A DNA stretch of 64,000 nucleotides from Candidatus Thermosaccharophagus tengchongensis. GTDB taxonomy: Bacteria; Armatimonadota; Fervidibacteria; Fervidibacterales; Thermosaccharophagaceae. The stretch's first letter is position 1, and every line of letters starts with the position of its first letter. Shown here in pieces: positions 45,001 through 48,000 of the stretch. Made by a program: the position numbers. The DNA lies in NCBI GenBank assembly GCA_032161105.1, contig JAVHTD010000001.1, one strand, 5' to 3'.

Positions 45001-48000
45001 TGAACAGGTCGCAAACTGCAGCACCTTGCATCAGGCTACACGCAGCAAGAGTAAGGGGGAGTAGCGCTGCCCTCCATGTGGCGAACCTCATCACACTCGC
45101 CTCCTTGCACACAGGGTTTTGGGAATTTGGATTGTGAGCGGTTGGAGCTGACTTTGGCAGCTTATGAAGGCGGCGCTTTTAAGGTCTTTAGATGACAGCC
45201 TCATCACTTGTGTTTCAGCAAGGCGCATTAGTTGCATTCTTGAACATGAGAGCAACTGCTAACCAATTTATGGCTTGCCAAAAATCCCACTCATCAAGCG
45301 TTTCTCTTCCCATCATCTGCGGCTTGCGTGCCATCATATTACGGCAGCGTGCAAATTGTAAACGATAGACGGGCAACATTTCTTGGGAGGGTGAGGCTCC
45401 AGCCGAACCCAAACTCCGTATTTATAGGCTCACCGGGAGGTTCGCCCTCCCTGCGATGTCACTTACAGTGTGCACACCGCCATGTTACCAACCTGGTGGG
45501 AAGGAATCGGAGTTAGTCCATGGCAAATATGTGCGCATAGTAGTCCGATCAGGAGCCCAGAACTTCTGGCTTGATATCCACTTAACATGCCCATCAAAGT
45601 AAGCTACATTCACGCCACCACTGTGTGGCTCAATGTAATCGGTTCCGCATCCACCACCCCGCCTCCAAGGGCGCATGCAAGCCCAAACTCCGTCAGCAAC
45701 CATGGCTAAATCGGCAGGGCGTTTGATCTGCGGGAATTTTATGTCCTCCCCCATGTCCGCTGATACAGGGCAATTGAATGCATAACTTGTCCCGTATGGC
45801 TTAACATCCGGTATCCACCACTGGCAATTTACACCACTATTCCGAAGTGTGGTTGGGCAGATAAAAAGATCCCAATTCTTGACATATGGGTGAATTAGAT
45901 GATGAAACCACATCGCAGTGTTCGGATTGTTGCAATAGCTGGGAGAGAGAGCAGCGCCGCGCCATCCGCGAAACTTCTCGTCATAGTCCTGAGCATACAT
46001 CAGGACGCCCAATGCAATCTGCTTCAAGTTGGCTTGACATTTTGCCGTCCTTGCCTTCTCCCTTGCCCTCGCAAACACAGGAAACAGTATTGCTGCCAAG
46101 ATGGCGATTATCGCTATCACCACCAGCAGCTCTATCAGCGTAAAACCTCTCCACCTCAACCTAAGCATTCCAGCTGCTCGCTTCATTTCACATCCCTCCT
46201 TTGAGTTTAAAAACATCGTGTGGAGATTGTGGGGCGGACGATAGTCCGCCTCACATCGTTCCTCAGTTGTGAACTCGGACAGCTGCCCCTGCGAACTTTC
46301 ACTGCATCACCTCCTTCGGTGTGAGATTGACCCCGTTCAGAAAACCCAACTCCCACAACCCAACTTTGGCACAGCGCAATTTGATTGTAAAGTCTCACAT
46401 TGCAATCTCGTCAAACGACATCAATTGAGCAAGGCATTGTTCGTAGTAAGCCACAAAGCGGAGTGGCGTCATCATGACATCGCTCGTAGTAAGCCACGAA
46501 GCGTTAGCGAAGTGGCGTCCATCATGACATCATTGACGGCACTTCACTTCGTTTCGTGCCTTACTACGAACCTCACAACCGTTCGTAGTAAGCCACGAAG
46601 CGTAAGCGAAGTGGCGTTCATCATGGCATCGTTGACAGCACTCCACTTCGTTTCGTGCCTTACTACAAACCTCCGCCACAAAGCGAAAGTGGCATCCTCA
46701 TAACATCGTTCGTAGTAAGCCACGAAGCGTAAGCGGAGTGGCGTTCATCATGGCATCGTTGACGGCACTCCACTTCGTTTCGTGCCTCACTACGAACCCC
46801 ATAATCGTTGTAAGCCACGAAGGGAAAGCGAAGTGGCGTCCTCATGGCATCAGAACTTTTGAATTACATCTTGACTCACCTTAATCTTTGTATGAACCAA
46901 CTTGCGTGTCTGTCGTATGTTTCAAATGGGTCGTCCATGATGAACCATTGCCTTTCGTTGAACAGCCCGCACACAAGCGAAATGCAGTCCCATTCAATGA
47001 TGTAATTTGTCACGCCGCGCCTTATGAGCTCCCTTATCACTCGGCTGCGCGCATAAGCCCTTGTGTTGCGCGGGGGATGCAGCATTGCCTCCTCAATTTT
47101 CTCGTCAGTGGTGACGCGCGTGGCGCTGCCGTTTCGCTGGAGCACATAGAACAAGCCCTCGCTTGGGTTGATGTTGTGATACTCCAAGTCAATGCTGAAT
47201 AGGGCATCATCGTTCCAGTCAATTCCTTCGGCATCCATATACAGCTGCAGCATCTTAAGTTTGGTCACCCAATCAAGCTTGCCCGAAAGCTGCATTGGGT
47301 CTTCCTCAAGCTTATCCAGAACATACTCCCACTCTCGTATTATCCAGTCCGTCTCCATATCCCTGCCGAGCAGGTTGCGTTTTGCGGCTTCAAGATATTG
47401 CCTTTGGATGTCAATAGCCGATATCGTTGTCCCTTCTCGCAATGTTGTTATCCAGCGCCAGCTCATATCTCGTGAAATCTCGCGCAGCGATTTTATCGGA
47501 TGGGCGAGTTCAATTGTCGGCGCACACTTCATTTCAATCAAGTCAAGCACGAGTGCCGTCGTCCCAATTTTTAAAGCCGCTGCATACTCTGAGACATTTG
47601 ATTCTCCGAAGAGGAGGTGAAGGCGCGTGTAGCGTGAGAAGTCATGATAGCTGTCCCACTTCGGGTTTATAAGCCCGCGATTGAAGCGCACCCTGCCAGA
47701 GACAACATGCAGTATATGATCGGCACGCTGCGAAAGTTGAAACTTCACATCCGGGTCTGGCTTCACCTCATATGCGAAGTCCACAAACACATAGTCAATG
47801 TCATGTGAGGCAAATGGGCGTCTTGAGCGCTTTGTCGGGATGAGCTTATGTCCACCAACCCTTCCGGCACCGGCAAATATTTGCCTTGTGACCAAGAAAG
47901 CTACAAGCGGTTGCAACGCCTTCCGTGAAAAGTATTGGTCTGGGCGGAGTGAATAGTTTTCATGGCAGCCGAATGTGTGCCCGCCAAAATGGTCAATGCT

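What a model noticed while it worked through the whole genome (the two positions that open the first line are those of the whole stretch)
46057..46886. A 440-bp promoter-leader-signal cassette is kept 91-98% identical among pseudopilin (H-X9-DG/SBP_bac_10) paralogues that [...]
Five of the 33 prepilin-type SBP_bac_10 genes (g00178, g01246, g00687, g02102, g02104) share a block from about -310 to +130 around the start codon that is 91-98% identical in DNA, after which identity collapses to 20-50% (proteins 39-45% identical, one pair 68% over part); the block holds a 31-codon upstream ORF with its own Shine-Dalgarno box and is preceded by tandem 90-nt hairpin repeats. I read this as ongoing gene conversion that copies one expression cassette (promoter, leader with uORF, signal peptide and pilin helix) onto different substrate-binding heads, a pilE/pilS-like modular system for co-regulating or switching surface binding proteins. 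Concerted evolution of 5' cassettes in [...]
Evidence so far: All-against-all blastn of 700 nt upstream of 36 such genes: 298 hits, e.g. g00178 vs g01246 86.6% over 522 nt, vs g02102 93.9% over 363 nt, vs g00687 94.2% over 326 nt. Sliding 50-nt windows over an alignment of the five loci: identity 0.95-0.98 from -244 to -44, 0.91-0.96 from -23 to +127, 0.70 at +127, 0.2-0.5 beyond +177. Block -250..+130 of g00178 hits C12:24743-25119 (96.3%), C6:8588-8967 (94.7%), C33:18341-18564 and 19596-19820 (94.7-96%). Protein identities 35-45%. uORF GTG..TAA of 31 codons behind GAAGGAGGTGA. Hairpin unit folds at -60.6 kcal/mol over 130 nt; repeat loci at 11 places, 9 directly upstream of SBP_bac_10 genes; these gaps rank top in a fold-energy scan of 169 intergenic [...]
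(Added by a program. Inside this text positions count along the whole contig: contig position 187,151 is position 1 of the stretch shown here. "Call 12" and the like, gene names such as g00115 and contig names such as C1 are that model's own, and its searches are not shown. The text may have been shortened before it was handed on; [...] marks where a part breaks off. The agent that wrote the report below was given it as the finding of a first reader that could run no searches.)

Follow-up and report, generated by a model that had tools for sequence, protein, structure and literature searches.

The report
Shared 5' cassette of pilin-like genes
Five long-diverged pilin-like genes of a hot-spring bacterium carry almost the same promoter-to-signal-peptide block, most likely because recombination keeps copying it between them, which is a real but familiar kind of gene-family evolution.

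Summary
Five DUF1559/prepilin genes share a block that is 91-99% identical from about -270 to +126 around the ATG. Four more genes carry a 70-85% variant.

The heads are old. Each has an orthologue in sister species at 62-91% aa, against 46% or less between paralogues. Those orthologues lack the leader and have unrelated 9-residue signal peptides. So the block was spread recently.

In two metagenome contigs of close strains, with flank and head 97-100% identical, the same loci carry another paralogue's cassette. Breakpoints lie in or just before the helix codons. This fits gene conversion, with a caveat about assembly paths through repeats.

- Switching like pilE/pilS is not supported. Every copy is a complete gene, and no recombinase lies nearby.
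- The 31-codon uORF is not conserved.
- An extended Shine-Dalgarno box is a family-wide leader feature.
- The hairpin repeats are a separate dispersed palindromic family. They also sit in frame inside a glycosidase gene.

The closest analogue is the Borrelia erp promoter/leader family. An earlier scan note describes a similar cassette in an Omnitrophota genome.

The parts
45485..46186 (-). Pilin-like gene (233 aa): a 13-residue class III signal peptide, a G|FTLIELL helix and a DUF1559 head with H-X9-DG
   Evidence: ORF and sequence. Pfam N_methyl 31.8 bits and SBP_bac_10 43 bits. Motif scan. Only residues 9-69 match solved type IV pilins.
46028..46455 (-). The homogenised block shared by five paralogues (-308 to about +90..+119 from the G codon at 46147)
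   Evidence: Sliding identity is 0.91-0.99, then decays. Within-group DNA identity in the helix codons is 100, 95, 89, 73 and 58% per 30 nt, against 79, 76, 75, 56 and 54% among other paralogues.
46148..46186 (-). Codons of the 13-residue signal peptide ([13 protein letters not shown]), shared by the five genes and C2-171174
   Evidence: Orthologues in G001-G003 have unrelated 9-residue peptides.
46184..46201 (-). True ribosome-binding site and start codon (AAGGAGGG, 7 nt, ATG)
   Evidence: Sequence. The same RBS context occurs in paralogues and in orthologues of other species.
46231..46252 (-). Short G+C-rich hairpin in the leader, itself a small dispersed repeat
   Evidence: Copies lie at C17:4339, C2:171804 and C11:45407 (each near a big hairpin array by the coordinates) and at C25:40345. 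There are five exact 20-nt matches in G006.
46207..46302 (-). GTG-started upstream ORF (31 codons here); frame and length are not conserved
   Evidence: 31, 16, 28, 12 and 28 codons in the five copies. No GTG in the second group.
46305..46317 (-). Extended Shine-Dalgarno-like box GAAGGAGGTGATG in the 5' leader
   Evidence: Conserved in 8 of 9 cassette leaders. GGAGG(0-2 nt)TGA occurs at -300..-75 in 16 of 34 family genes, 8 of 25 outside the cassette groups, against 2.1% of random 225-nt windows.
46384..46414 (-). Promoter-like block (TTGACG, 19 nt, TACAAT), conserved in all nine leaders
   Evidence: Alignment; segment identity 92-99% within group A. The consensus scan missed it because its spacer limit is 16-18 nt. 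Promoter function is inferred, not shown.
46435..46851 (.). Tandem array of about 90-99-nt palindromic (hairpin) repeats
   Evidence: TRF. Fold z = -11.2. Genome-wide copies. Unit map. No Rfam family above threshold.
45113..46875 (-). 1.76-kb segment (hairpin array, leader, gene, 3' spacer) lying between the Pup-ligase gene and the PhoPQ-related gene
   Evidence: In G001 and G002 the two flanking genes are about 70 nt apart. In G003 a hairpin repeat follows the Pup-ligase gene and the contig then ends.
57384..58178 (-). Second cassette-bearing family gene in the window (C1-245289), with a truncated leader variant
58338..58581 (.). Hairpin repeat array upstream of that second gene
   Evidence: C1:245488-245731.

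Best explanation
The block is a multi-copy expression and export cassette. It holds a sigma-70-like promoter block, a leader of about 190 nt with an extended Shine-Dalgarno box, the real RBS, a 13-residue prepilin signal peptide and the first 30-40 codons of the pilin helix.

The cassette sits on at least five long-diverged DUF1559 paralogues. It is kept nearly identical by non-allelic homologous recombination (gene conversion).
- The 3' anchor is the helix-coding DNA, which is 75-100% identical among all 34 paralogues.
- The 5' anchor is most likely the array of dispersed palindromic repeats that precedes every cassette copy.
- Tracts end where coding homology fades, about +90 to +120 nt into the mature protein.

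The likely consequence is that several different heads share one promoter, leader and signal peptide and are therefore co-expressed. It is not an on/off or antigenic switching device.

Shown: the recent common origin of the block, its absence from orthologues, the mosaic copies, and the strain-to-strain replacement tracts. Inferred: RecA-type conversion as the mechanism, the repeats as upstream anchor, promoter function and co-regulation.
For: **1. The heads are old and the block is young.**
- The head tree is star-like, with a median end branch of 1.5 changes per site.
- Each head has an orthologue in same-genus genomes at 62-91% aa, against 46% or less to paralogues.
- The block differs by only about 5% between copies.

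**2. Orthologues lack the block.**
- Orthologue DNA homology starts at or within a few bases of the first helix codon in 9 of 11 comparisons.
- A leader-only query gives 0 matches among 30 scored candidates in G003 and 0 among 9 in G002. In G001 it gives only a 26-nt Shine-Dalgarno box.
- Orthologues have unrelated 9-residue signal peptides.
- Leaders are unalignable even between G001 and G002.

**3. Synonymous sites are homogenised.** In helix codons 0-31, 58 of 316 identical-residue codons differ within the group (0.18). The figure is 0.49 against other paralogues and 0.55 among those others.

**4. The copies are mosaic.**
- C2-171174 has a B-type promoter and 29-nt module but an A-type signal peptide and helix.
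- The C33 pair has an A-type promoter and also carries the 29-nt module.
- Of 210 pairs of informative sites, 103 fail the four-gamete test, giving Rm >= 10.

**5. Close strains differ in the cassette at the same locus.**
- L063 is the C6-8678 locus: flank 98.8% over 981 nt, head 97-100%. It shows 41 consecutive C33-type diagnostic sites from -93 to +89, then 38 consecutive own-locus sites from +92.
- L062 is the C12+25031 locus. It shows 41 consecutive C33-type sites from -162 to -2, then 23 of 24 own-type sites from +104.
- The control locus L064 is 97-100% identical throughout.
- An identical 29-nt deletion is shared by three non-orthologous G000 loci. Two of their orthologous loci in the strains keep the module.

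**6. Every cassette copy follows a hairpin array** (9 of 9).
Against: - The PHI test for spatial clustering of incompatible sites is not significant (p = 0.14).
- One clade for the five heads is not rejected (AU p = 0.30). An old subfamily origin of part of the similarity therefore cannot be excluded from the tree alone.
- All genomes and strain contigs are short-read metagenome assemblies. Copies share exact stretches of up to 98 nt, so an assembler could switch paths exactly where I place breakpoints. I could not phase reads, because the one read-laying run returned only short unitigs that break at the repeat.
- A related signal peptide and RBS context exist in a genome of another family (G006). 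That part of the cassette is therefore older than this species.
- No transcript start or expression data were obtained. RNA contigs did not cover the leader, and this shows nothing either way.
Confidence: 0.7

Rival explanations
1. A promoter-bearing MITE-like composite element (big hairpin array, small GC hairpin and promoter block) transposed to sites upstream of these genes. The similarity of the coding 5' end is secondary.
For: - The hairpin repeat behaves as a mobile family. It gives 133 matches in G003 and 32 in G006 (another family), and is essentially absent from G001 and G002.
- Copy number differs between close strains.
- Copies lie in frame inside a GH5 ORF.
- The small GC hairpin of the leader also lies close to three other arrays and in G006.
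- The C17 locus has a second, diverged leader copy on the far side of its array.
- Promoter-carrying MITEs such as Correia are documented (PMC10969869, passages read).
Against: - The shared block runs through the RBS, replaces the native signal peptide and homogenises synonymous sites in the helix codons. An upstream insertion cannot do that.
- Strain replacement tracts span -93 to +89, so they include coding sequence.
- The leader is found only at the nine gene loci, never alone.
- No Y1 (RAYT-type) transposase was found in the 97% complete genome.
- Nine sampled hairpin loci in G003 and G006 have no pilin-like gene nearby.
- Terminal inverted repeats and target duplications were not examined.
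Confidence: 0.15
2. A programmed variation system (pilE/pilS-like conversion, or a shufflon or invertible switch) that changes which head is expressed.
For: - Recombination between copies is real.
- Flank and head pairings differ between species. The upstream flank of the C12+25031 orthologue in G001 lies upstream of C6-8678 in G000.
- C6-8678 and C6+74005 are in inverted orientation 65 kb apart.
Against: - All nine copies are complete genes with promoter-like block, RBS and ATG, so there are no silent cassettes.
- No recombinase or invertase is among 22 neighbouring ORFs at seven loci.
- The two C6 loci lie about 65 kb apart in a second, independent assembly too.
- The exchanged segment is the constant part, so exchange does not change the protein's head.
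Confidence: 0.04
3. An old cis-regulatory leader kept alike in ancient paralogues by purifying selection alone, for example a structured RNA or a protein-binding leader.
For: The promoter-like block and the Shine-Dalgarno box are conserved between the two cassette groups. The box is enriched family-wide.
Against: - Orthologues in three sister species lack the leader.
- The leader folds no better than shuffles, z = -0.27.
- No Rfam family matches.
- About 95% identity over roughly 270 non-coding nt, together with indels and mosaicism, is not what selection on a few sites produces.
Confidence: 0.02
4. An artefact of metagenome assembly or binning, such as collapsed or chimeric repeats.
For: Repeats of 60-98 exact nt are shared between copies. 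Unitigs of public runs break at 46113-46124.
Against: - The five copies are distinct, about 5% apart, and each is embedded in a long contig with unique flanks.
- Leader depth is about 5 times single-copy depth in the best-holding run.
- The head unitig and flanks recur at 99-100% in runs of three studies.
- The flank-cassette-head order at the C6-8678 locus recurs in an independent metagenome assembly.
- This rival could still explain individual breakpoints, but not the existence of the multi-copy block.
Confidence: 0.03

Closest known systems
Borrelia burgdorferi erp (OspE/F-related, 'upstream homology box') gene family
   Same: A single promoter, leader and localisation sequence is joined to many diverse sequences that encode the exposed part of the protein. 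There is frequent recombination between members and co-expression of the set (PMC10016077, passages read).
   Different: The proteins are unrelated: lipoproteins on cp32 prophage plasmids of a pathogen, against chromosomal prepilin-type DUF1559 genes of a hot-spring bacterium. The resemblance is one of mechanism, not homology. Here the upstream border is an array of palindromic repeats.
Neisseria pilE/pilS pilin antigenic variation (recalled, not read here)
   Same: Pilin-type genes and RecA-type gene conversion between dispersed copies.
   Different: In Neisseria there is one expressed locus plus promoterless silent copies, and the variable 3' part is what is converted. Here every copy is complete and the constant 5' part is what is converted.
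Expanded N_methyl + SBP_bac_10 (DUF1559) families of Planctomycetes
   Same: The domain architecture is the same and the family is greatly expanded and dispersed: 41 or more prepilin-motif genes per genome in Planctomycetales, and 91 two-domain proteins in T. immobilis (PMC8567305, passages read). This genome has 34.
   Different: The passages I read from that paper do not mention shared 5' cassettes. Searches for 'DUF1559' (4 papers) and 'H-X9-DG' (1 unrelated paper) found no paper whose title or abstract start concerns this; only PMC8567305 was opened.
REP/BIME, Rickettsia palindromic elements and promoter-bearing MITEs (Correia)
   Same: The hairpin repeats are short imperfect palindromes in tandem. 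They are dispersed, patchy between relatives, sometimes in frame inside genes like RPEs, and often directly upstream of genes like Correia (PMC10969869, passages read).
   Different: No RAYT-type transposase was found. Element ends and target duplications are not defined. The promoter-like block lies outside the palindromic units.
   Same: Three pilin-like DUF1559-type genes share a promoter, a leader and their first 40 or so codons. That note also read this as recombination-maintained (AI note, unchecked).
   Different: It concerns another phylum and other sequence.

Membership tests
Prepilin-type (type IV pilin-like) N-terminal domain, PF07963 N_methyl | Short basic leader ending in G, then F-x-x-x-E and a hydrophobic helix | tested here: met
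   N_methyl scores 31.8 bits against a cut-off of 21.2. The motif [10 protein letters not shown] is present. Residues 9-69 match solved pilins, best E 1.2e-9.
Prepilin-type (type IV pilin-like) N-terminal domain, PF07963 N_methyl | A prepilin peptidase (Peptidase_A24) is present in the genome | tested here: met
   Two matches above the cut-off, at C22:7831-8154 and C14:30688-31056. Cleavage and methylation themselves are not testable here.
DUF1559 / SBP_bac_10 (PF07596), 'H-X9-DG' proteins | Pfam match above the gathering score, plus the C-terminal H-x9-DG motif | tested here: met
43 bits against a cut-off of 23.3, but only profile positions 2-32 align. The H.{9}DG pattern is present.
pilE/pilS-type antigenic variation | One expression locus plus promoterless, 5'-truncated silent copies | tested here: not met
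   All nine copies have the promoter-like block, RBS, ATG and signal peptide.
pilE/pilS-type antigenic variation | Conversion replaces the variable, exposed part of the protein | tested here: not met
   Replacement tracts cover the leader through about +90 of the helix codons. Heads stay locus-specific.
Shufflon or invertible-promoter switch | A site-specific recombinase next to the variable loci | tested here: not met
   None of 22 neighbouring ORFs of 120 aa or more at seven loci matched a recombinase or transposase family at E<=1e-5.
Concerted evolution of a 5' cassette in a multigene family (erp/UHB-like, works-like class) | Copies within a genome are more alike than orthologues between genomes, with mosaic copies | tested here: met
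Translated regulatory uORF or leader peptide | Start codon and reading frame conserved among copies | tested here: not met
   Lengths are 31, 16, 28, 12 and 28 codons. There is no GTG in the second group. Translation of some short ORF behind the box is not excluded.
Structured cis-regulatory leader RNA (riboswitch-like) | A known family match or unusually stable fold | tested here: not met
   No Rfam hit near any gathering score. Fold z = -0.27.
REP/BIME elements | Imperfect palindromes in tandem arrays in intergenic DNA | tested here: met
   Some copies, however, lie within ORFs.
REP/BIME elements | An associated RAYT (Y1 transposase, PF01797) | tested here: not met
   0 matches in G000, which is 97% complete. 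The control search found it in 6 of 14 reference genomes.
RPE-like intragenic palindromic elements | In-frame insertion that leaves the host ORF open | tested here: met
   In the GH5 ORF L037:382-3501, two units lie between DUF5060 and the catalytic domain. The G003 orthologue has a shorter insert in a 1046-aa open frame. The GH42-like ORF L039 also overlaps a unit, but was not compared with an orthologue.
MITE (Correia-like) | Terminal inverted repeats with target-site duplication | not tested
   Element ends could not be defined from the arrays.

The most novel reading that the evidence does not exclude
The palindromic arrays are not passive neighbours. In this reading they start the copying. 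Breaks or stalled forks at the hairpin array would be repaired from another array-bearing paralogue. That would send a polar conversion tract through promoter, leader and signal peptide until homology ends in the helix codons.

Such a system would be repeat-driven and homology-guided. It would install one promoter, leader and signal cassette on any family member that acquires an array, and so recruit new heads into one regulon.

What fits: only array-bearing genes share the cassette (9 of 9), and tracts end at +90..+120. No polarity test was possible.
Probability: 0.2. Interest if true: 0.65.

Novelty: new member of a known kind. Interest (0 to 1): 0.42.

Why it matters
DUF1559/prepilin proteins are among the most expanded and least understood surface-protein families of Planctomycetes, Verrucomicrobia-like and related uncultured phyla. 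This case gives a concrete handle on how they are organised.

A subset is tied together by one recombining promoter, leader and signal block, which predicts co-expression. The comparisons include strain-level events that fit conversion in a natural hot-spring population.

The case also shows how dispersed palindromic repeats and a universally conserved coding segment can together frame a conversion tract. It points as well to a family-wide extended Shine-Dalgarno box in the leaders, which could be tested for mRNA stabilisation or standby ribosome binding.

The principle, concerted evolution of 5' cassettes, is already known from erp and similar families.

Tried and rejected
**Known or structured RNA in the leader or repeats.** Rfam gave only sub-threshold microRNA-model hits on the palindromes. 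The leader fold is not unusual.

**Promoter and terminator scan.** It found nothing on the gene strand in the leader, because its spacer limit is 16-18 nt.

**Transcript evidence.**
- One RNA run (X17) held 0.15 of the sampled words.
- Its contigs cover parts of the gene and helix at about 97% identity, but not the leader.
- These are contigs and the run is not the same strain, so nothing can be concluded about transcription or its start.
- The habitat label 'hot springs metagenome' comes from the run table only.

**Read-level phasing.** The single call returned k-mer unitigs that break at the repeat, so cassette could not be linked to head.

**Head phylogeny as an incongruence test.** The tree is unresolved (25 of 31 inner branches open) and the AU test does not reject one clade for the five heads (p = 0.30). 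I dropped this argument.

**PHI test.** Not significant.

**Within-genome cassette in the nearest relative.** The 670-nt upstream region of one G003 orthologue is unique in G003. Only that one locus was tested.

**Pattern scan of representative genomes.** The promoter block found nothing.

**Operon hypothesis.** From ORF order and orientation alone, downstream ORFs of the nine genes show no common same-strand partner. The Pfam names come from a different ORF list.

**Not run.** No structure prediction, complex prediction or large protein searches were run, because the question was about DNA-level copying.

**Organism name.** An earlier scan note names the genome as Armatimonadota. I did not test this.
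Full report
**What is there**

The finding sits upstream of a 233-aa gene on the minus strand, window 45485-46186, with its ATG at 46186 behind AAGGAGGG.
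- Pfam finds the prepilin N-terminal motif (N_methyl) and the start of SBP_bac_10/DUF1559, a family that Pfam describes as of unknown function.
- Only residues 9-69, the pilin helix, resemble solved structures.
- The genome has two prepilin peptidase genes.

Going upstream on the gene's strand, the elements are:
- the RBS (46184-46201);
- a short G+C hairpin (46231-46252);
- a GTG-started ORF (46207-46302);
- an extended Shine-Dalgarno-like box (46305-46317);
- a promoter-like block, TTGACG-19 nt-TACAAT (46384-46414);
- a 420-nt array of 90-99-nt palindromic repeats (about 46435-46851);
- the stop of a Pup-ligase gene at 46876.

The assembly is 2.74 Mb in 44 contigs. It holds 34 SBP_bac_10 matches and 38 ORFs with a prepilin motif.

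All-against-all comparison of upstream regions defines two groups.
- Group A: C1-233297 (this gene), C33+18658, C33+19914, C12+25031 and C6-8678.
- Group B: C17-3797, C2-171174, C6+74005 and C1-245289. The last is also in this window.

In group A, mean pairwise identity is 0.91-0.99 from -308 to +87. Positions are counted from the G codon of GFTLIELL, and the ATG is at -39. Identity then falls to background. A 216-nt leader-only query hits the other four copies at 94-97%, and the group B loci (including C1-245289) at 72-78%.

**The block is young and the heads are old**

- The heads are so diverged that their tree is a star, with a median end branch of 1.5 changes per site.
- Each of the five heads has an orthologue in same-genus genomes G001-G003 at 62-91% aa identity. 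Identity to any paralogue is 46% or less.
- Orthologue DNA homology begins at or within a few bases of the first helix codon in 9 of 11 comparisons. It then runs through the gene and, for the C12, C6 and C33 loci, into downstream genes.
- Upstream of that point there is nothing. The leader-only query gave 0 of 30 scored candidates in G003 and 0 of 9 in G002. In G001 it gave only a 26-nt match to the Shine-Dalgarno box.
- No leader match appeared among 40 relatives in the wider search, though only 16 candidates per genome were scored there.
- The orthologues have unrelated 9-residue signal peptides. All five A genes and C2-171174 share a 13-residue peptide of the form MKRA..ML.L.W..
- Leaders of this family evolve fast. 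G001 and G002 are 82-89% identical in the flanks and genes of these loci, yet their leaders do not align.
- Inside the helix codons, where the protein is nearly invariant in all paralogues, synonymous sites tell the same story. Within group A, 58 of 316 identical-residue codons differ (0.18). The figure is 0.49 against other paralogues and 0.55 among those.
- Elevated identity fades over +60 to +120.

**Evidence for copying between loci**

The nine leaders are mosaics.
- C2-171174 is B-type in the last hairpin unit, the promoter block and a 29-nt module, but A-type in signal peptide and helix.
- The C33 pair is A-type in the promoter and Shine-Dalgarno region, and also carries the 29-nt module.
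- Among 21 informative sites in group A, 103 of 210 pairs fail the four-gamete test (Rm >= 10). The PHI statistic is not significant, p = 0.14.

The strongest evidence comes from three metagenome-contig loci of close strains, found with a pattern from the promoter block.
- L063 matches the C6-8678 locus at 98.8% over 981 nt of upstream flank and 97-100% in the head. Its cassette is the C33 type: 41 consecutive diagnostic sites from -93 to +89, then 38 consecutive own-locus sites from +92 to +300.
- L062 is the C12+25031 locus, with its head 97-100% identical. It shows 41 consecutive C33-type sites from -162 to -2, then 23 of 24 own-type sites from +104.
- L064 is the C6+74005 locus and serves as a control. 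It is 97-100% identical throughout.

The 29-nt module is present in the group B genes, at least partly in C1-245289, and in the strains. The identical deletion shared by three non-orthologous G000 loci is therefore most simply a derived variant that was copied between loci.

**Caveat**

- All of this is short-read metagenome assembly.
- Copies share exact runs of up to 98 nt, and my one read-laying run gave only unitigs that break at 46113-46124.
- Individual breakpoints could therefore be assembler path switches.
- The multi-copy block itself is not in doubt. The copies are distinct and embedded in long contigs.
- Leader depth is about five times single-copy depth in the best-holding run.
- The flank-cassette-head order at C6-8678 recurs in an independent assembly.

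**Rearrangement around the cassettes**

- In G001 and G002 the Pup-ligase gene is followed after about 70 nt by the PhoPQ-related gene.
- In G000 1.76 kb (array, leader, gene) lies between them. In G003 a hairpin repeat follows the Pup-ligase gene and the contig then ends.
- The upstream flank of the C12+25031 orthologue in G001 lies, in G000, directly upstream of C6-8678.
- The C12 flank is next to a C12-type head in G003 as well.
- So heads and flanks have been re-paired within the genus. The breakpoints could lie in the cassette or in the arrays.

**The hairpin repeats are a separate repeat family**

- They fold far better than shuffles, z = -11.2.
- They occur at 21 clusters in G000. Nine lie upstream of the nine cassette genes.
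- They give 133 matches in G003 and 32 in G006, a genome of another family. They are essentially absent from G001 and G002.
- None of nine sampled loci in G003 and G006 is near a prepilin motif.
- Array length differs between close strains by about 170 and 260 nt.
- In G000 two units lie in frame between the DUF5060 and GH5 domains of a 1040-aa ORF. The G003 orthologue has a shorter insert in an open 1046-aa frame. Another unit overlaps a GH42-like ORF.
- No Y1/RAYT transposase was found.
- The leader's small GC hairpin is also dispersed. It lies near three other arrays and has five exact matches in G006.
- The C17 locus has a second, diverged leader copy beyond its array.

The upstream half of the cassette is therefore partly built from repeat-family pieces. 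This keeps a MITE-seeding scenario alive as a contributor.

**The uORF and the Shine-Dalgarno box**

- The GTG ORF is 31, 16, 28, 12 and 28 codons long in the five A copies. It has no GTG in group B, so no peptide is conserved.
- The box in front of it is conserved in 8 of 9 cassette leaders.
- GGAGG(0-2 nt)TGA occurs between -300 and -75 in 16 of 34 family genes, including 8 of 25 outside the cassette groups. Only 2.1% of random 225-nt windows hold it.
- Similar boxes precede the orthologues in G001-G003.
- It looks like the full complement of the 16S rRNA 3' end. It also recalls Shine-Dalgarno-like mRNA stabilisers of Bacillus. Both points are recalled, not tested.

**What it is not**

- No recombinase or transposase is among 22 neighbouring ORFs at seven loci.
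- From ORF order and orientation, no common same-strand downstream partner follows the nine genes.
- No Rfam family matches, and the leader is not structured.
- All copies are complete expression units, so the pilE/pilS analogy fails on its defining features.

**Comparison with what is known**

- The closest analogue in mechanism is the Borrelia erp family. [quoted passage not shown]
- Expanded N_methyl + SBP_bac_10 families are described for Planctomycetes (PMC8567305, passages).
- Searches for 'DUF1559' and 'H-X9-DG' listed five papers. None concerns 5' cassettes by title or abstract start, and I opened only PMC8567305.
- Promoter-bearing MITEs and in-frame RPEs are reviewed in PMC10969869 (passages).

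**Verdict**

- The gene-conversion reading is supported.
- The switching and uORF readings are not supported.
- This is a new member of a known kind, with a good natural-population example and some testable side features.

Noticed in passing
L037:1491-1723 (G000 C12:13490-13722); L039:1793-1882; L040:1842-2969: Units of the same palindromic repeat lie in frame inside long ORFs. Two copies sit between the DUF5060 and GH5 domains of a 1040-aa ORF, and the G003 orthologue has a shorter insert in an open 1046-aa frame. One unit overlaps a GH42-like ORF, and several overlap a 745-aa ORF with no Pfam match. This resembles Rickettsia palindromic elements.
   Followed up: partly
window 46305-46317 and the leaders of 16 of 34 family genes in G000: An extended Shine-Dalgarno-like box (A)AGGAGGTGATG lies 75-260 nt upstream of the helix codons in about half of the family. 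It is in 8 of 25 genes outside the cassette groups, against 2.1% of random windows, and also in orthologue leaders of G001-G003. It is often followed by a very short ORF.
   Followed up: partly
window 45113-46875: The whole unit (array, leader, gene) is an insertion of about 1.76 kb between the Pup-ligase gene and the PhoPQ-related gene, relative to G001 and G002, where these are about 70 nt apart.
   Followed up: yes
G000 C6:9093-10873 versus L048 (G001): The upstream flank (LptF/G and ABC genes) of the C12+25031 orthologue in G001 lies upstream of a different paralogue (C6-8678) in G000. Heads and flanks have been re-paired within the genus.
   Followed up: partly
window 45402-45482: A small repeat with a G+C hairpin lies just downstream of the gene's stop. 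It matches C16:39391-39470 (86%) and C21:16023-16093 (82%), and depth is raised here in public runs.
   Followed up: no
L044:1700-2040 (G003): The leader of the G003 orthologue of C33+18658 holds about two and a half tandem copies of a unit of about 125 nt. Each unit ends in an RBS-like box and a start codon. It seems the leaders of this family grow by duplicating the RBS region.
   Followed up: no
L002:1485-1735 (G006:C58): A DUF1559 gene in a genome of another family shares the RBS context and a related signal peptide (MKREVRMLKWE) with the group A cassette. Similarity is about 86% over 137 nt. G006 also carries the hairpin repeats and the small GC hairpin.
   Followed up: partly
helix codons, window 46057-46147, and 40 relatives: The DNA encoding the pilin helix is 80-94% identical to this gene in family members across all 40 relatives searched, up to phylum level. 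This is enough homology to seed recombination between any two paralogues.
   Followed up: partly
G000 C17:4339-4470 (L034): A second, diverged copy of the leader (promoter-like block and GC hairpin) lies on the far side of the hairpin array at the C17-3797 locus. The array is therefore flanked by leader copies.
   Followed up: partly
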